A DNA stretch of 25,098 nucleotides. It comes from a virus. The notes beneath the pieces are model-generated. The model worked only from the letters and a program-made list of their open reading frames with translations, searched no databases and was not told where the DNA came from. Location of the stretch: the UHGV virus genome UHGV-1632131. The stretch is one strand, 5' to 3'. Position numbers and translations under genes: made by a program. Shown in pieces: positions 6,931 to 22,922 of the stretch (within the stretch, counting starts at the first letter, position 1; each line of letters begins with the position of its first letter).

Positions 6931-6944
6931 AATTTCTAACACAG
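6931..6944 (-). promoter_or_regulatory. operator-like motif copy 1 (AATTTCTAACACAG, reverse complement of CTGTGTTAGAAATT)
   Basis: One of at least 8 copies of a TGTGTTAGAAATT-type motif in the window; sits in the intergenic region upstream of the HTH gene, adjacent to the palindrome CAGTGTAT-TAATA-TACACTG. Confidence 0.4.
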
Positions 6945-7028
6945 TGTATTAATATACACTGTTGATTAGTGATTAATGTTTCGGGTAGGATCGCGTTCGT
7001 TGCTCAGTTTGATGGGCGTAGAAAGAAC

Positions 7029-7054
7029 AAAAGCCGCTGGGGGGCGGCTTTTGA
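7029..7054 (+). terminator. intrinsic terminator
   Basis: AAGCCGC-TGGGGG-GCGGCTT hairpin followed by TT, downstream of the 6912 stop. Confidence 0.55.
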
Positions 7055-7058
7055 GGGC

Positions 7059-7084
7059 GATAAATCTATTTGAGTAGATTTATC
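7059..7084. promoter_or_regulatory. perfect 10-bp inverted repeat GATAAATCTA-N6-TAGATTTATC
   Basis: Perfect palindrome about 70 bp upstream of the ATG at 7157; candidate operator for a dimeric DNA-binding protein. Confidence 0.4.
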
Positions 7085-7156
7085 AGAGGCGTAGGTCTTA
7101 GACACCCACGCTGATATACCAAAACTTGGAACTCGCATTGATATATCAAGGATTAC

Positions 7157-8121
7157 AGATGGATATTTTAAATTCAGATGCCATCACTTTCAACATTTTT
7201 GAGCGGAAAGGCAACGCTGAGTACCATAAGCATATCAAAGGCCACCAGCTAAGTTTCTTTGCCCGGCACAGTGGATTCCTGTCGCCAACACACGGTTCGA
7301 TCATTGCCGAATTTTCCAACCTGGCAGGGTCAACTGACGAATACATAATCCGTCGCTCTTATGCTGATATGGCTGCCATTCTGGGCCGTAGCGTCTCCAC
7401 CGTTCGCCGTGCATTTTCTGAGGCTGTTAAATGTGGAATGCTCACCAAGCAACATCAGATTGGCAGTAACAATGCTCAGGTTTGTAATGTCTACCGCTTC
7501 ACCCCTGATTTCCTCCAGTTTATTTCCATCGTTTTGGAGACTGGACGTAAGCAGGGCGTCAAAATTGTTAATGCCACGAAACTGGTTAAGCAACTGATTT
7601 CAAAGGTACGTTCTTTTTTTGAGGTCAATGCCCCCCTGTTCAAAATGAACAACTCCCCCCGTGTTCATGATGAACAACCAATAGAAAAGAAGAATAAAAC
7701 CGTAACCAAAAAAAGAGAAAGATCATGCCAGGTTCAGCCAAAGGCTTCCCAGGCGGTGTCCACTCAGTTAAATCCAGACTTTCTGAGTGAAGCGCATGTT
7801 GTTAGCGAAGAGCAGATAAACAGCCGCATAGCTGCTGCAAAAGCGCGATCCGCTAAACGTCAGGCTGACGACCGCCACGCGAAACGTCTGTCACTACATC
7901 GGGCTGCTGAAAAGTTAGCTCATAAAATTGCCTGGATTCGCGGGACAGGGAATGCGGGAAAGGCCAATAAGACTGCCAACGGGCTGGATTTTTCAATGGA
8001 TTATTCGGCCTATCAGGGCTGCCAGACCGTTGACGAGGCGTTAAAGCTCATGAAACAACGAGGCACCAAAACTGAGTTTGATGATCGTGAGTGGCGTATC
8101 CCTGCTGGATTCCGAGGATGA
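7157..8121 (+). CDS. putative helix-turn-helix DNA-binding protein (regulator or replication-associated), basic C-terminal half
   Basis: Track ORF starts at TTG 7126; the in-frame ATG at 7157 has an AAGGA Shine-Dalgarno 5 nt upstream. HTH-like segment (YADMAAILGRSVSTVRRAFSEAVKCGML); Lys/Arg-rich C-terminus. Confidence 0.5.
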
Positions 8122-8153
8122 TGTGGGTAAATTATGACAGCTTAATACAGAAA

Positions 8154-8171
8154 CCCCGGCCTGTACCGGGG
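8154..8171. terminator. hairpin between convergent genes (possible bidirectional terminator)
   Basis: CCCCGG-CCTGTA-CCGGGG stem-loop between the + gene ending 8121 and the - gene ending 8179; U-tracts are weak on both strands. Confidence 0.35.
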
Positions 8172-8178
8172 TGTGGAG

Positions 8179-8664
8179 TCACGCTTCGCTGGTGGATGTG
8201 GCGGCCTCACCATTAGGAAGTAAGGCAGTATTCCGTGGTTCTCCAGTAGGCCAGCGATAACCTGAAACGCGCGATGTTGGGAAAGCGCGGATATTCACGG
8301 CATCGCCCTGGTTGCCCCCAAGAATGAGCAAATCACCATTCGCCCGGCGACCAACGACAAAGCCGACATGCCCGCCGCCCACGCGAGTAAATACAGCAAT
8401 ACATCCATACGCTGGCGTATCGAGCGCCTCACCCCATGTCAGGTAGGATTTTGCTGACTCGAAGCGGCTGGAACGGATACCAACACGCTCTAACATTGCG
8501 CCAACAAAGGCCGCGCACCACGGCGTTTCATCATCTTTAATGCCGCCGCGCTTGATGTCTCGCCAGAACTGGACGATTTCAGGATTGTGTTTAGCCCCTT
8601 TGATTTCTGTCAGGCCAATATGTTTACGGGCTTCCATCAGCCAACGAGGATCGGTACTCACCAT
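8179..8664 (-). CDS. CHAP/NlpC-P60-like cysteine peptidase family protein (putative peptidoglycan hydrolase)
   Basis: Track start is TTG at 8685; the in-frame ATG at 8664 has an AGGAG Shine-Dalgarno. Conserved Cys (ETPWCAAFVGAML) and His (GGGHVGFVVG) in the order expected for CHAP/NlpC-P60 hydrolases. Confidence 0.5.
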   Translation of the reverse strand: MVSTDPRWLMEARKHIGLTEIKGAKHNPEIVQFWRDIKRGGIKDDETPWCAAFVGAMLERVGIRSSRFESAKSYLTWGEALDTPAYGCIAVFTRVGGGHVGFVVGRRANGDLLILGGNQGDAVNIRAFPTSRVSGYRWPTGEPRNTALLPNGEAATSTSEA

Positions 8665-21208: not shown

Positions 21209-21312
21209 TGGGATTCTGGGATTTTGCTGACAAGTATCCAATTGTTCTCATTATTATTGTTGCCATAGTTGTAGGCGGCATTGTTAGCGCCATTGAAGCA
21301 CTTAGTAAATAG
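21208..21312 (+). CDS. candidate small hydrophobic membrane peptide (34 aa), absent from the ORF track
   Basis: ATG at 21208 with AAGGA Shine-Dalgarno 7 nt upstream (21196-21200); MGFWDFADKYPIVLIIIVAIVVGGIVSAIEALSK; TAG stop at 21310-21312, 6 nt before tRNA-Ile2. Confidence 0.4.
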   Translation: MGFWDFADKYPIVLIIIVAIVVGGIVSAIEALSK

Positions 21313-21318
21313 TAATCC

Positions 21319-21394
21319 GGCCCCTTAGCTCAGTGGTTAGAGCTGGCGACTCATAATCGCACGGTCATCGGTTCAAGTCCGGTAGGGGCCACCA
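21319..21394 (+). tRNA. tRNA-Ile2 (anticodon CAT, lysidine-type) or less likely tRNA-Met
   Basis: Acceptor GGCCCCT/AGGGGCC, D-arm GCTC-AGTGGTTA-GAGC, anticodon loop CTCATAA, T-arm ATCGG-TTCAAGT-CCGGT, discriminator A, CCA. The body closely resembles E. coli ileX-type tRNA as I recall it (GGCCCCUUAGCUCAGUGG ... CUCAUAAUCGC ... GGUUCAAGUCC ... AGGGGCCACCA). Confidence 0.8.
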
Positions 21395-21436
21395 TATTTG
21401 GTTGTAACACGGCGTATGGCACATGCGTCGATAGCG

Positions 21437-21545
21437 GTCTGGTGTAGCTGTTAGGTACCTTTTACTAACACTGTATGGGCACATCAGGTAGCCGGAATGT
21501 GCAAGCCCCGTTCATATCGTCGGACCGAGGACTCACCATCCTGGC
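21437..21545 (+). other. degenerate tRNA-like remnant (possible tRNA-Asn-derived pseudogene)
   Basis: Carries TGGTGTAGCT (matching the 5' acceptor/D region of the window's tRNA-Asn) and CTCACCATC (matching its 3' acceptor region), but the intervening approx. 80 nt do not form a canonical cloverleaf. Confidence 0.25.
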
Positions 21546-21575
21546 GATTCGGTGTGACAGCCGGAAGAGCACGGC

Positions 21576-21686
21576 ACATAACAGGTAAGGGTGTTTGATT
21601 AGCGCGTCATTATCGCTTGCGAAGTAGAGTCATCATCGAAAAGCAGCCCTTGACGGTCGATGCAATGAACATCCTTACCGTTGTGG
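21576..21686 (+). ncRNA. long-stem hairpin element E5
   Basis: CATAAC-[bulged A]-GGTAAGGGTG (21576-21594) pairs with CATCCTTACC-GTTGTG (21670-21685); 74-nt loop; 3' flank GTTGTGG-TAATTGCGG as in E0, E3 and E4. Confidence 0.4.
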
Positions 21687-21923
21687 TAATTGCGGCTATG
21701 CGCACGTGACGAAGCCATTTTCTTCAACTTTTTTGTATAAACAAAATCGTTCTGGTAAGTGTCGTCGCCAGGGGTGGCTGTCCTGGCAGGTGGAGGCACC
21801 ACCGCCACAACCCTATCTCAACCCATCATATAGTCGCTAAGGCTGTATCTCATACTAATACGAAACAAGACACACACTACCGGGTATCCGGGGAATAGTT
21901 ACGTCTGTAGGAAAGGAGAGGTT

Positions 21924-22499
21924 ATGACTGTTTTGGCTAATGCAACGTATACAGAGCAGGACCGCATCTTGAGTGAGTTCATTGGACGCAATGAACGCTG
22001 GTCATGCATGGGTGACGCTTTGTATCACGCACTGTCAAACAAAGGGGTCAACATCGAAACGGCGTCAAAAGGCGATTCCCATGCTGTGACAGTAACAGTT
22101 CGTGGATGCAGCCTTACCGAAGTCCATCCCGAACCTTATGTTGCGCTTGCCGAGGCCGCTGTAAAACTCCTCAAGTTTCATAAACAGGCTGTCGCTGGTG
22201 GACTTTCCATTGCCAAAGCAAACATTCCTTTTTCTGTCGCAATCCACTGGTTAATGAACGGATTAGACGCACGCCGAAAATCCTGGCCTAAAGGACAGTA
22301 CATATCACTCGAACCCGGCTGCATTGAAAGTAAGGACAAGATGGTTAGCTTTCTTCCGGAAGGAATATTCAACGTGCAAAAGGGCGTCAAAGTCTCCATT
22401 CTTCCACGTCTGGTAATGATGGATGGTGCTTTGCAAGCACGTTCTGACTGGTTTGCCAGCAGCGTAGACATTATGGCAACTGACTGGGAGGCATTTTGA
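21924..22499 (+). CDS. protein with C-terminal DUF2829 (Tad2-like) domain and an uncharacterised N-terminal domain
   Basis: ATG with strong GGAAAGGAGAGG Shine-Dalgarno. The C-terminal half (approx. nt 22225-22496) matches my recollection of the DUF2829 pattern: FSVAIHWLMNGLDARRKSWPKGQYISLEPG ... MMDGALQARSDWFASSVDIMATDWEAF (compare the family-typical FGEAxEALKxGxKxRRxGW ... FIYLVPG ... PWLASQTDxLAEDWE). Needs HMM confirmation. Confidence 0.55.
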   Translation: MTVLANATYTEQDRILSEFIGRNERWSCMGDALYHALSNKGVNIETASKGDSHAVTVTVRGCSLTEVHPEPYVALAEAAVKLLKFHKQAVAGGLSIAKANIPFSVAIHWLMNGLDARRKSWPKGQYISLEPGCIESKDKMVSFLPEGIFNVQKGVKVSILPRLVMMDGALQARSDWFASSVDIMATDWEAF

Positions 22500-22891
22500 T
22501 GTACGAAGAGCAGAAGCTAACAGTTGAACAAGCTAAGGAAATGGACTGGACGTTGCTTGACTGCAAAATCACGTCATGTCATGCAGGTGAAACAAAACTA
22601 GGTTACGAAAGTACCGTGCATGGGTATGCAACCCTTGCCGTTCGTGACGTACGTATTCGATTTAACTGGAACGCAAAGCAACTAACGCCGTTCAGAGCAC
22701 CCACAGGACCACTTAATGTTGATCAGGACTATCTGACCGTACCACAAGTTGAAGGCTATTTGCTGTCGGAAAACGATGGGCGCAAGGCTGATTATGAAAG
22801 CGAGTTAAGGCTGGCGCAGGCGGTAGTCAACAAAACCAAAGGGAAGTGGTCCGCAAAAGTAAGACATATTGTTCGTTTAAGCAGATGGTAG
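22499..22891 (+). CDS. hypothetical 131-aa protein
   Basis: ATG at 22499 overlaps the upstream stop (TGATG) with GGGAGG 8 nt upstream; the track start is TTG 22496; no motif recognised. Confidence 0.5.
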   Translation: MYEEQKLTVEQAKEMDWTLLDCKITSCHAGETKLGYESTVHGYATLAVRDVRIRFNWNAKQLTPFRAPTGPLNVDQDYLTVPQVEGYLLSENDGRKADYESELRLAQAVVNKTKGKWSAKVRHIVRLSRW

Positions 22892-22922
22892 TGTTAGAAA
22901 TAAAACCTGTAATTTCTAACAT
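22891..22922. promoter_or_regulatory. palindromic operator pair GTGTTAGAAAT-N9-AATTTCTAACA
   Basis: Two operator-like motif copies in inverted orientation, 80 bp upstream of the putative late-activator gene; candidate repressor operator overlapping its promoter. Confidence 0.45.

What the first reader, a model, noticed from the sequence alone, without database searches (positions are those of the whole stretch)
6931..22922. Dispersed TGTGTTAGAAATT operator-like motif (at least 8 copies), twice as inverted pairs
Copies lie at 6931-6944 (-), 16625-16638, 17675-17689, 18942-18956, 19091-19119 (inverted pair) and 22891-22922 (inverted pair, GTGTTAGAAAT-N9-AATTTCTAACA). All are intergenic or at gene 5' ends and precede non-structural genes (the HTH protein, VRR-NUC, the 403-aa protein, the small-RNA locus, the putative late activator); none was seen upstream of the portal or DarB-like genes. 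P1 is known for a repressor (C1) that acts through many asymmetric operators dispersed around the genome, including one controlling lpa (established knowledge). This motif has a different sequence from the P1 operator consensus as I recall it, so it may be the operator set of a distinct immunity specificity. It could alternatively be a late-promoter element.
Basis: partly seen in the sequence, partly recalled or inferred. Interest (0 to 1): 0.55.

Follow-up and report, generated by a model that had tools for sequence, protein, structure and literature searches.

The report
Operator set of D6-type C1 repressor
The repeated TGTGTTAGAAATT motif is real and is most likely the set of DNA sites through which a P1-like plasmid-prophage of the phage D6 group keeps its lytic genes switched off: the known P1 scheme of many scattered repressor sites, but with a different recognition sequence.

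Summary
The 9-mer core TGTTAGAAA occurs 7 times in the window (0.16 expected), always between genes or within the first codons of a gene. An eighth, weaker copy forms the -35 of a promoter.

The window is 99.4% identical to a 79.7-kb Shigella dysenteriae plasmid-prophage of the phage D6 group. In that replicon 16 of 17 copies of TGTTAGAA lie in the 15.5% of the DNA annotated as intergenic.

The sites sit where P1 has C1 operators: before repL, the pmgL-pmgM region, pmgR/pmgS, the tRNA (ban-like) operon, lpa, ref, mat, icd, hrdC and c1 itself. The repressor is a distant P1 C1 homologue (23% identity, Pfam Phage_P7_repressor_C1) and is encoded just outside the window.

The motif follows the repressor clade. 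It is present in D6 and in relatives whose C1 is 47-72% identical. It is absent from P1. A Pantoea relative (C1 31% identical) has a different motif at matching positions.

A separate motif, AAAT(A/C)ACA(A/C)A(C/G)T, marks the late genes, so the late-promoter alternative is rejected.

This is a new member of a known kind. Binding itself is untested. One side result: the predicted repressor structure matches only Tus, a monomer that binds an asymmetric site.

The parts
6924..6944 (-). Single operator, CTGTGTTAGAAATTTAATTTA (core 6931-6943), between pro and repL. Positional counterpart of P1 OrepL (Op53).
   Evidence: 26.6 bits. The D6 orthologous site is at 22464-22484. P1 annotation.
16625..16645 (+). 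Single operator, ATGTGTTAGAAATTACAATCG, at the 5' end of the pmgM-like VRR-NUC gene. A candidate -10 (TATAAC, 16619-16624) abuts it. Counterpart of P1 O26 in the pmgL-pmgM region.
   Evidence: (25.4 bits). Orthologous sites in D6 (11357-11377) and E. fergusonii (L009 1128-1148).
17675..17695 (+). Single operator, ATATGTTAGAAAATTAAATTC, 20 nt upstream of the 403-aa pmgS-like gene. It directly follows a predicted promoter (-35 TTCCAA 17648-17653, -10 TAAAAT 17671-17676). Counterpart of P1 OpmgRa/b (Op86).
   Evidence: (28.5 bits). Alignment A1 shows the block ACTAATAAAATATGTTAGAAAAyTA conserved across 4 genomes while the flanks diverge.
18942..18962 (+). Single operator, ATGTGTTAGAAATTTGAGTTG, just after the pmgS-like gene and immediately upstream of a late-promoter-like box.
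   Evidence: 27.1 bits. Conserved in alignment A2.
18968..18978 (+). Late-promoter-like box AAAATAACACATT next to the operator. Possible dual control, comparable to P1 Omat/LPmat.
   Evidence: Conserved in 3 of 4 genomes in A2. The dual-control role is inferred.
19091..19103 (-). Weak, reversed arm (CTTCTAACAAATG on the + strand). It supplies the -35 (CTAACA, 19094-19099) and is not conserved as a half-site in D6.
   Evidence: (below 8 bits).
19094..19122 (+). Best sigma-70-like promoter of the region: CTAACA, 17-nt spacer, TATAAT (10 of 12 consensus positions). It heads the tRNA-Asn/Thr/Met and tciB region and is the functional analogue of P1 P1ban.
   Evidence: tRNAs at 20205-20357 and 21319-21394. 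P1 ban operon layout.
19105..19125 (+). Operator AAATGTTAGAAATATAATGCG covering the spacer and -10 of that promoter. Counterpart of P1 Obanab (Op72).
   Evidence: (23.3 bits).
22889..22924 (.). Paired (bivalent) operator before lpa: AGTGTTAGAAATA-N8-AATTTCTAACATT, half-sites 22889-22909(+) and 22904-22924(-). Counterpart of P1 Olpa (Op94). The right half ends 19 nt before a conserved TATAAA (22942-22947); in P1, Olpa ends 20 nt before the -10 of Plpa.
   Evidence: 21.1 and 20.6 bits; A3.
23002..23394 (+). lpa, the late-promoter activator and the key gene placed under the motif.
   Evidence: Pfam PF25716 BPP1_LPA, E 6e-48. 32% identical to P1 Lpa.
7126..8121 (+). repL-like lytic replication gene (annotated start about 7164), the presumed target of the 6931 operator.
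   Evidence: Annotation of the sister plasmid and of D6.

Best explanation
The motif is the operator of the element's C1-type prophage repressor. That protein has 345 aa, is 70% identical to phage D6 C1 and 23% identical to P1 C1, and is encoded about 1.2 kb beyond the right end of the window. The operator is asymmetric and about 20 bp long, aTgTGTTAGAAAWyTAAnnT: a strongly conserved 5' core followed by a weaker A/T-rich 3' tail. This is the same build as the P1 operator ATTGCTCTAAT-AAATTT.

In the lysogen, repressor bound at about 18-20 sites scattered round the 80-kb plasmid would block host RNA polymerase at early and lytic promoters. Some sites lie on the -35, spacer and -10 (tRNA operon). 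Some directly abut the -10, over the transcription start (pmgS-like and pmgM-like genes, and c1 itself, which implies autoregulation). Others are pairs placed at or just upstream of the -35 (lpa).

Holding lpa and repL off keeps the late regulon and lytic replication silent. The late regulon has its own separate promoter motif.

Four loci carry two operators in inverted orientation with the TTAGAA cores 20 bp apart, which is two helical turns and so the same face of the DNA. This would allow two bound molecules to cooperate.

What is shown: the motif exists, it is enriched, it lies in intergenic DNA, it is conserved at orthologous sites, it co-varies with the repressor clade, and it differs from the late-gene motif. 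What is inferred: that C1 is the binding protein, that binding represses, which promoters are real, and that paired sites are bound cooperatively.
For: Enrichment: for the window. In the plasmid, TGTTAGAA is the top intergenic 8-mer, with 16 of 17 copies intergenic.

Same positions as annotated P1 C1 operators:
- repL / OrepL
- pmgL-pmgM region / O26
- pmgR-pmgS / OpmgRab
- tRNA-tci operon / Obanab
- lpa / Olpa
- ref / Oref
- the ref stop codon on the minus strand / Omat, which has the same placement in P1
- hrdC / Odmt
- icd / Oc4
- c1 / Oc1

Repressor: it is homologous to P1 C1 (pairwise E 2e-9) and belongs to Pfam PF27008 Phage_P7_repressor_C1. An operator lies about 20 bp before the c1 ATG in both the plasmid and D6.

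Conservation: the sites are conserved while their flanks diverge (A1-A3).

Clade specificity: a matrix trained on the plasmid finds 16 sites of at least 14 bits in D6 and none in P1. Relatives whose C1 is 47-52% identical keep TGTTAGAAA at the c1, integrase, lpa and pmgS sites. A Pantoea relative (C1 31% identical) has neither motif. Instead it has its own dispersed ATTTAGAAT before the likely lpa gene, before hrdC and after the integrase gene.

Promoter overlap.

P1 precedent: 22 dispersed operators with a 17-bp asymmetric consensus, controlling RepL and Lpa (PMC8546580).

Fold: the predicted repressor structure matches only Tus, a monomer that binds an asymmetric site of about 21-23 bp.
Against: There is no binding or expression data of any kind.

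The repressor gene is not in the window, so its link to this copy rests on a 99.4%-identical sister plasmid.

The promoter assignments are consensus matches only. The lpa promoter is ambiguous.

Three single sites (repL side, ref stop codon, after dre) point away from the nearest downstream gene. P1 operators also occur in both orientations.

No homologue of the P1 corepressor Lxc was found at the equivalent position. Coi was not looked for.

I could not read the D6 genome paper, so I cannot exclude that these sites have already been described or assigned differently.
Confidence: 0.85

Rival explanations
1. The motif is a late-promoter element recognised through the Lpa activator, as the -22 box is in P1.
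For: One site (18943) sits beside a late-promoter-like box. In P1, pmgM and pmgS carry the name 'putative morphogenetic'.
Against: A different motif, AAAT(A/C)ACA(A/C)A(C/G)T followed by a TAnnnT-like -10, occurs 11 times in the plasmid against 2.5 in shuffles. Nine copies lie 34-146 nt upstream of, and co-oriented with, mat, the upfC-like gene, capsid, pmgB/sit, R, lydA, ddrB, portal and a lysis hydrolase. Five such sites were found at the same genes in D6. That motif resembles the P1 late box ACAAGTGACT. The TGTTAGAAA motif instead precedes lpa itself, c1, ref, icd and repL, which are early or immunity genes, and is absent before the portal, holin, tail-fibre (R) and sit/pmgB operons; two copies do lie in the divergent region before the capsid gene.
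Confidence: 0.02
2. The sites are bound by a regulator other than C1, either another phage-encoded DNA-binding protein or a host nucleoid protein attracted to A/T-rich DNA.
For: No binding data exist. The motif is A/T-rich. The element encodes many proteins of unknown function.
Against: The two G positions of the core are almost never varied in the sites of the plasmid and of D6, including those from lineages whose C1 is only 47-52% identical. That argues for base-specific recognition. The positions match P1 C1 operators at about ten loci, and one site abuts the c1 start. The motif changes when the C1 clade changes, as in P1 and Pantoea. It does not match the IHF consensus as I recall it.
Confidence: 0.08
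3. The motif is simply a conserved early-promoter core. In the pairs, TTAGAA serves as -35 and TAACAT/TAACAC as -10, 17 bp apart on either strand, with no dedicated repressor.
For: In the paired sites the two halves give -35-like and -10-like hexamers with a 17-bp spacer. At 19094-19122 the left arm is the -35.
Against: The scores for these composite promoters are low (6.9), and TAACAC lacks the final T. Single sites have no partner hexamer. Conservation extends over about 20 nt, well beyond two hexamers, and is asymmetric. A promoter role and an operator role are not exclusive, since P1 operators also overlap -35 or -10 elements.
Confidence: 0.04
4. The copies are a chance or compositional repeat, or a remnant of a mobile or recombination site (rox or cix).
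For: None beyond the A/T richness.
Against: The core occurs 7 times against 0.16 expected, and 16 of 17 copies in the plasmid are intergenic. The sites are conserved at orthologous positions in at least 6 genomes. The annotated rox and cix sites of D6 lie elsewhere.
Confidence: 0.01

Closest known systems
Phage P1/P7 ImmC system: the C1 repressor and its roughly 20-22 dispersed asymmetric 17-bp operators (ATTGCTCTAATAAATTT), which control ref, mat, ssb, c4-icd-ant, kilA-repL, dmt, ban, pmgR-S, lpa and c1-coi
   Same: The repressor is homologous (Pfam PF27008; 23% identity). There are many operators scattered round a plasmid-prophage. The sites are asymmetric, with a conserved 5' core and an A/T-rich tail, and occur as a mix of single and paired sites. 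They sit at the same gene neighbourhoods, about ten loci in all. They overlap sigma-70-type promoters. lpa and repL are under control, and there is an autoregulatory site at c1.
   Different: The operator sequence is unrelated apart from a possible shared TTAGA, which appears when the P1 site is read in reverse complement. The site is longer, about 20 against 17 bp. The pairs span 34 bp with the cores 20 bp apart and the TG ends facing outward, whereas the P1 pairs are 28-bp palindromes with cores 14 bp apart in the opposite relative orientation. Pairing is not conserved locus by locus: lpa, ref and hrdC are paired here and single in P1, and ban is the reverse. The repressor is 62 aa longer. 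No Lxc homologue was found at the lxc position, and no coi/imcAB genes are annotated upstream of c1.
Phage D6 (MF356679, AY753669), the type member of the D6 cluster of P1-like plasmid-prophages
   Same: It has the same gene order, a C1 that is 70% identical, and the same core motif (TGTGTTAGAAAAy) at the same positions.
   Different: The tail preference differs slightly: AAAACTAA in D6 against AAATTTAA or AAAATTAA here. The D6 lpa pair is more degenerate. No operators are annotated in either D6 record. I could not check whether the D6 genome paper describes them.
P1 Lpa-dependent late promoters (a 9-bp '-22' box AAGTGACTT, then 4 nt, then the -10)
   Same: The window does contain a motif of this kind, AAAT(A/C)ACA(A/C)A(C/G)T followed by a -10, before the late genes.
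   Different: That is a separate motif from the one in the finding, and its sequence also differs from the P1 box.
E. coli Tus-Ter (a monomeric protein clamped on an asymmetric site of about 21-23 bp)
   Same: The predicted fold of the D6-type C1 matches only Tus among solved structures. Both systems use asymmetric sites of about 20 bp. From my own knowledge, P1 C1 binds its operator as a monomer.
   Different: There is no sequence similarity. The function is transcriptional repression, not replication-fork arrest. The match rests on a predicted model only, with a modest TM-score.

Membership tests
P1-type C1 repressor/operator network (ImmC) | The repressor is homologous to P1/P7 C1. | tested here: met
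   BLASTP against P1 C1 gives 23% identity over 239 aa with a pairwise E of 2e-9. The precomputed Pfam family is PF27008 Phage_P7_repressor_C1. The gene lies outside the window, on the 99.4%-identical plasmid.
P1-type C1 repressor/operator network (ImmC) | There are many operators dispersed round the genome rather than one cluster next to the repressor gene. | tested here: met
   About 18 sites of at least 14 bits are spread over the 79.7-kb plasmid, 7 of them in this window. P1 has 22 (PMC8546580).
P1-type C1 repressor/operator network (ImmC) | The operator is asymmetric and used as single copies, with some inverted pairs. | tested here: met
   The information profile is one-sided: a core followed by a 3' tail. 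Single sites occur at 8 or more loci and pairs at 4. The geometry of the pairs differs from P1.
P1-type C1 repressor/operator network (ImmC) | The operator matches the P1 consensus ATTGCTCTAATAAATTT, which would mean the same immunity specificity. | tested here: not met
   There are 0 matches with up to 3 mismatches in the window. Conversely, P1 has 0 sites of at least 14 bits for the new matrix. The element belongs to the kind but not to the P1/P7 specificity group.
P1-type C1 repressor/operator network (ImmC) | The operators lie at promoters of the genes that C1 controls in P1. | tested here: met
   Positions match for repL, the pmgL-M region, pmgR-S, the tRNA/ban operon, lpa, ref, mat, icd, hrdC and c1. 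The promoters themselves are predictions only.
P1-type C1 repressor/operator network (ImmC) | C1 physically binds the sites and represses transcription. | not testable with these tools
   This needs EMSA or footprinting, ChIP-seq and reporter assays.
P1-type C1 repressor/operator network (ImmC) | The accessory modulators Lxc (corepressor) and Coi (antirepressor) are present. | tested here: inconclusive
   The 88-aa ORF at the lxc position (after ulx, window 16185-16451) shows no similarity to P1 Lxc. No coi/imcAB genes are annotated in the 400 bp upstream of c1, and Coi was not searched for. A published study of a D6-like plasmid also found no Lxc (PMC6799933).
P1 Lpa-dependent late promoters | A conserved box centred near -22 plus a -10, located upstream of structural and lysis operons. 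| tested here: not met
   The finding's motif is absent before the portal, holin, tail-fibre (R) and sit/pmgB operons. A different motif fills that role.
Tus-like DNA-binding fold (for the repressor) | Structural similarity to Tus over most of the chain. | tested here: inconclusive
   [not shown]

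The most novel reading that the evidence does not exclude
The C1 repressor family of P1-like plasmid-prophages, including the classical P1 C1 for which no solved structure was found in the PDB copy searched, may be a Tus-like monomeric DNA clamp. That would explain why its operators are asymmetric and about 17-21 bp long. 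The three clades compared here would then be a natural series of recognition-sequence drift at fixed regulatory positions: P1 ATTGCTCTAAT, D6 clade TGTGTTAGAAA, Pantoea ATTTAGAAT, possibly sharing a TTAGA core. In the D6 clade, two-turn inverted pairs would add cooperative binding.
Probability: 0.4. Interest if true: 0.6.

Novelty: new member of a known kind. Interest (0 to 1): 0.42.

Why it matters
D6-type plasmid-prophages are common in Escherichia, Shigella and Salmonella. A tblastn search of the plasmid collection found 152 records with a match to this repressor. PHROGs lists the repressor family as 'unknown function', and no operators are annotated in the D6 records.

A defined operator consensus has several uses:
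- It allows the lysogeny-controlled gene set to be annotated automatically.
- It predicts which elements should exclude each other. The whole D6 clade appears to share one C1 specificity, so differences in immunity would have to lie elsewhere, as they do between P1 and P7.
- It supplies ready-made repressible promoters that should not respond to P1 C1.

Together with P1 and the Pantoea element, it also gives a three-point comparison for working out how this repressor family reads DNA.

Tried and rejected
- Literature. The D6 genome paper (Gilcrease & Casjens 2018, PMC5800970), Sauer & McDermott 2004 and Lobocka et al. 2004 are not in the held library. Searches for the motif string and for 'C1 operator' together with D6 found nothing relevant. 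Prior description therefore cannot be excluded.
- P1-type late box. A search for AAGT[GT]A[CT]T in the plasmid, window and D6 gave only scattered, mostly intragenic hits. This prompted the de novo search that found the real late motif.
- Most repeated words in the Pantoea plasmid. TGTTTRYAAACA turned out to be a local array at 76.6-78.5 kb, probably iterons or a partition site, and not dispersed operators.
- Scan of species-representative genomes for the paired operator, TGTTAGAAA-N12-TTTCTAACA. It gave 81 hits in unrelated taxa, many of them Sphingomonadaceae, and none in Enterobacterales elements. This says nothing about the finding.
- Other searches with no useful result: Rfam on the region downstream of the tRNA-operon promoter found only tRNAs. 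Foldseek against viral predicted structures found nothing. The afdb50 library was unavailable. A profile comparison of C1 with Tus found nothing.
- Hairpin in the lpa 5' leader. It is conserved in sequence, but its folding energy is not unusual (z = -1.04).
- Aligning the D6-type and P1 operators base by base. The same-direction alignment gives 5-6 of 17 matches, and the reverse-complement alignment shares TTAGA. Neither is convincing, so only the shared build of the sites is claimed.

Full report

Yes. TGTGTTAGAAATT with up to two mismatches occurs six times in the window, against 0.59 in dinucleotide-preserving shuffles, and no shuffle reaches six. The exact core TGTTAGAAA occurs seven times against 0.16 expected. 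The positions are 6933-6941(-), 16628-16636, 17678-17686, 18945-18953, 19108-19116, 22892-22900 and 22913-22921(-).

A 21-nt weight matrix built from a sister replicon scores these seven sites at 20.6-28.5 bits. The next best position in the window scores 8.4 bits.

The pair before lpa is a genuine inverted pair. The '19091-19119 pair' has the opposite arm orientation, and its left arm is weak and not conserved as a half-site in D6.

**2. What the window is**

The window is 99.4% identical over 16000-24000 to 79.5-80.2-kb plasmids of Shigella dysenteriae. Only short parts of it resemble P1 or D6 at the DNA level.

I took NZ_CP026808.1 (79,695 bp) as a complete stand-in. Window position 1 corresponds to plasmid position 47,043.

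Gene order and the D6 annotation identify the window genes as follows:
- darA, ddrA, ddrB, the portal gene, pro and repL
- a lysis hydrolase, then darB and ulx
- a pmgM-like VRR-NUC gene, a pmgR-like gene and a pmgS-like gene
- a tRNA cluster and tciB
- two small genes, then lpa, pacA and the start of pacB

The repressor gene lies at plasmid 73,332-74,369, about 1.2 kb past the end of the window.

**3.

A de novo count of 8-mers in the annotated intergenic DNA of the plasmid (15.5% of the replicon) ranks TGTTAGAA first. It occurs in 11 separate intergenic segments, and 16 of its 17 copies in the replicon are intergenic.

Four inverted pairs all have 13-mers starting 21 bp apart:
- before a pdcB-like DUF968 gene
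- between ref and a divergent operon, where the pair is a perfect 34-bp palindrome, TGTGTTAGAAATTCAATTTTGAATTTCTAACACA
- before hrdC/rdgC
- before lpa

Single sites lie:
- at the ref stop codon, upstream of icd
- between the capsid gene and a divergent operon
- between pro and repL
- at the pmgM-like gene
- before the pmgS-like gene
- after the pmgS-like gene
- in the tRNA-operon promoter
- about 20 bp before the c1 start codon
- just after the dre (cre-like) gene

A weaker copy (TATGTTACAAATT) lies before mat.

**4. Which protein the sites belong to**

The plasmid's 345-aa 'phage repressor protein' is 70% identical to phage D6 C1. It is 23% identical to P1 C1 over 239 residues, with a pairwise E of 2e-9. 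The protein collection assigns it to Pfam PF27008, Phage_P7_repressor_C1. My older Pfam copy has no match for it, and PHROGs lists its family as 'unknown function'.

The fully annotated P1 record AF234172 lists the C1 operators. Almost every new site has a counterpart at the same gene neighbourhood:

| Site here | P1 operator |
|---|---|
| before repL | OrepL (Op53) |
| pmgM-like gene | O26 (Op82), beside pmgL-pmgM |
| before pmgS-like gene | OpmgRa/b (Op86) |
| head of the tRNA/tci operon | Obanab (Op72) |
| before lpa | Olpa (Op94) |
| before ref | Oref |
| at the ref stop codon, minus strand | Omat |
| before hrdC | Odmt (Op68) |
| upstream of icd | Oc4 (Op51) |
| before c1 | Oc1 |

Omat overlaps the ref stop codon on the minus strand in P1, exactly as the site here does.

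At lpa even the geometry matches. The right half-site ends 19 nt before a conserved TATAAA. In P1, Olpa ends 20 nt before the -10 of Plpa.

The published P1 picture is of 22 dispersed operators with an asymmetric 17-bp consensus, ATTGCTCTAATAAATTT, controlling RepL and Lpa (PMC8546580).

**5. Conservation, and co-variation with the repressor**

D6 carries the same core at the orthologous places. The matrix trained on the plasmid finds 16 sites of at least 14 bits in D6 and none in P1, a genome of similar size.

Alignments of three intergenic regions from this window, an E. fergusonii plasmid, a S. flexneri plasmid and D6 show the motif blocks conserved while the neighbouring sequence diverges.

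Three more distant elements, whose C1 is 47-52% identical (Klebsiella variicola and two metagenomic contigs), still have TGTTAGAAA before c1, after the integrase gene, before lpa and around pmgS.

A Pantoea plasmid-prophage, whose C1 is only 31% identical, has neither the D6-type nor the P1-type sequence. It has its own dispersed motif, ATTTAGAAT, sometimes as ATTCTAAA-N6-TTTAGAAT pairs. This lies before the likely lpa gene, before hrdC and after the integrase gene.

So three repressor clades have three different motifs at the same regulatory positions. This is what is expected if the repressor is the reader of the motif. The P1 consensus itself is absent from the window.

**6. Anatomy and likely mechanism**

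Pooling 34 sites from the plasmid and D6 gives high information over TGTTAGAAA (1.4-1.9 bits per position). There is a weaker but clear 3' extension (T-A-A, then a T six positions on). Little is conserved upstream.

The operator is therefore asymmetric and about 20 bp long, aTgTGTTAGAAAWyTAAnnT. It is built like the P1 site, which has a conserved 11-nt core and an A/T-rich tail in the 20 annotated P1 operators.

In the pairs the TTAGAA cores are 20 bp apart, which puts them on the same face of the helix. P1's paired operators are 28-bp palindromes with cores 14 bp apart in the opposite relative orientation.

The promoter scans give consensus matches only:
- The best promoter of the region is CTAACA, a 17-nt spacer, then TATAAT at 19094-19122. 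The operator covers its spacer and -10.
- Before the pmgS-like gene, TTCCAA, 17 nt, then TAAAAT is followed directly by the operator.
- At the pmgM-like gene and at c1 (sequence read), a -10-like hexamer (TATAAC, CATAAT) abuts the operator.

The most likely mechanism is therefore promoter occlusion or blocking of the start site by the bound repressor. It would include autoregulation of c1 and would hold lpa and repL off in the lysogen. This last step is inference.

**7. The late-promoter alternative**

P1 late promoters read ACAAGTGACT, then 4 nt, then TAnAAT. That sequence is not used here.

The de novo search found a second motif. In refined form it is AAAT(A/C)ACA(A/C)A(C/G)T followed by a TAnnnT-like hexamer. 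It occurs 11 times in the plasmid against 2.5 in shuffles.

Nine copies lie 34-146 nt upstream of, and co-oriented with, these genes:
- mat
- an upfC-like gene
- the capsid gene
- pmgB/sit
- the tail-fibre gene R
- lydA
- ddrB
- the portal gene
- the lysis hydrolase

In window coordinates the copies are at 2739-2749(+), 4168-4178(+), 8705-8715(-) and 18968-18978(+). A looser copy lies at 22950-22962, before lpa.

D6 has this motif before lydA, the portal gene, mat, R and upfC.

Lpa here is 32% identical to P1 Lpa, which fits a diverged late box.

The two motifs are distinct in sequence and in the class of gene they precede. The finding's motif is therefore not the late element. At 18943-18978 the two lie side by side, which recalls the dual C1/Lpa control of mat in P1. 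That parallel is from my own knowledge and was not tested.

**8. A side result on the repressor**

An AlphaFold2 model of the D6-type C1 was built from 10 aligned homologues and has mean pLDDT 83.9.

There is no sequence-profile similarity. No solved structure was found for P1 C1. The held literature does not link C1 to Tus.

Tus is a monomer that clamps an asymmetric site of about 21-23 bp. This fits the asymmetric operators here and, from my own knowledge, the reported monomeric binding of P1 C1. It rests on a prediction with modest TM-scores and remains a lead.

**9. Comparison with what is known, and novelty**

The system works like the P1 ImmC network and meets every membership criterion I could test except one: the operator sequence. 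That puts it in a different specificity group from P1/P7.

It is the same system as in phage D6. The D6 repressor is annotated, but no operators are annotated in either D6 record. I could not read the D6 genome paper, so the consensus may or may not be in print.

I classify it as a new member of a known kind. A P1 specialist would not find it surprising.

Its value is practical:
- annotating a widespread group of plasmid-prophages
- predicting immunity groups
- supplying repressor/operator parts that should not cross-react with P1

It also has comparative value. Because the core is conserved across the whole D6 clade, down to 47% repressor identity, differences in immunity within the clade, if any, probably lie elsewhere. 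From my own knowledge, this is how P1 and P7 differ.

**10. Verdict**

The late-promoter alternative is rejected. Binding and repression remain to be shown experimentally.

Noticed in passing
window 2739-2749(+), 4168-4178(+), 8705-8715(-), 18968-18978(+); looser copy at 22950-22962(+): A second dispersed motif, AAAT(A/C)ACA(A/C)A(C/G)T followed by a TAnnnT-like -10, lies 34-146 nt upstream of late genes: ddrB, portal and the lysis hydrolase in the window, and capsid, lydA, R, sit/pmgB and mat elsewhere in the replicon and partly in D6. It is probably the D6-clade version of the Lpa-dependent late promoter. The looser copy before lpa would imply positive feedback.
   Followed up: partly
[not shown]
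   Followed up: partly
L011+L012 (Pantoea sp. plasmid CP009882.1): 4219, 12221, 28033, 64027, 69207, 76242/76255, 79136, 81366: A P1/D6-like Pantoea plasmid-prophage, whose C1 is 31% identical, has its own dispersed motif ATTTAGAAT, with some ATTCTAAA-N6-TTTAGAAT pairs. It lies before the likely lpa gene, before hrdC and after the integrase gene. This looks like a third operator specificity in the family.
   Followed up: partly
L012 about 31630-33490 (CP009882.1 76630-78486): About 20 copies of the 12-bp palindrome TGTTTRYAAACA are packed into 1.9 kb of the Pantoea plasmid. This is probably an iteron or partition array and is unrelated to the finding.
   Followed up: no
window, 19 sites, e.g. 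19013-19020(+) and 19082-19089(-): The Chi sequence GCTGGTGG occurs 19 times in the window against 0.74 expected, and 71 times in the 79.7-kb plasmid. Two copies flank the tRNA-operon promoter region and are conserved in 4 genomes. From my own knowledge, Chi richness is known for P1.
   Followed up: partly
window 6941-6962: A palindrome with 9-bp arms, ACAGTGTAT-TAAT-ATACACTGT, overlaps the 5' end of the operator on the repL side and is largely conserved in D6. It may be a site for another protein at the lytic replication locus.
   Followed up: no
window 16185-16451: An 88-aa ORF (PHROG 6844, function unknown) sits directly after ulx, where P1 has the C1 corepressor gene lxc, but it shows no similarity to Lxc. 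It may be a positional analogue.
   Followed up: partly
window 22972-22996: A stem-loop conserved in sequence in the lpa leader (CCCCUCGG...CCGGGGG) includes the likely ribosome-binding site GGGGGA. Its folding energy is not unusual (z = -1.04) and no compensatory changes were seen.
   Followed up: partly
window 21924-22499: A 191-aa protein annotated as an 'MW1434 family type I TA system toxin' has a Tad2-like (Thoeris anti-defence 2) domain (Pfam E 6.9e-11). It may be an anti-defence gene sitting just upstream of the lpa operator.
   Followed up: no
P1 AF234172 89893-89904 (L007 about 394-405): In P1, the sequence GTGTTAGATAAA directly abuts the P1 operator Olpa. It resembles a D6-type half-site; compare TGTGTTAGATAATT in the hrdC pair. 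It may be chance or a relic.
   Followed up: no
loci L018, L019, L023-L025, L038, L040 and others (Sphingomonadaceae): The pattern TGTTAGAAA-N12-TTTCTAACA recurs in many Sphingomonadaceae genomes. This is presumably an unrelated conserved palindromic site.
   Followed up: no
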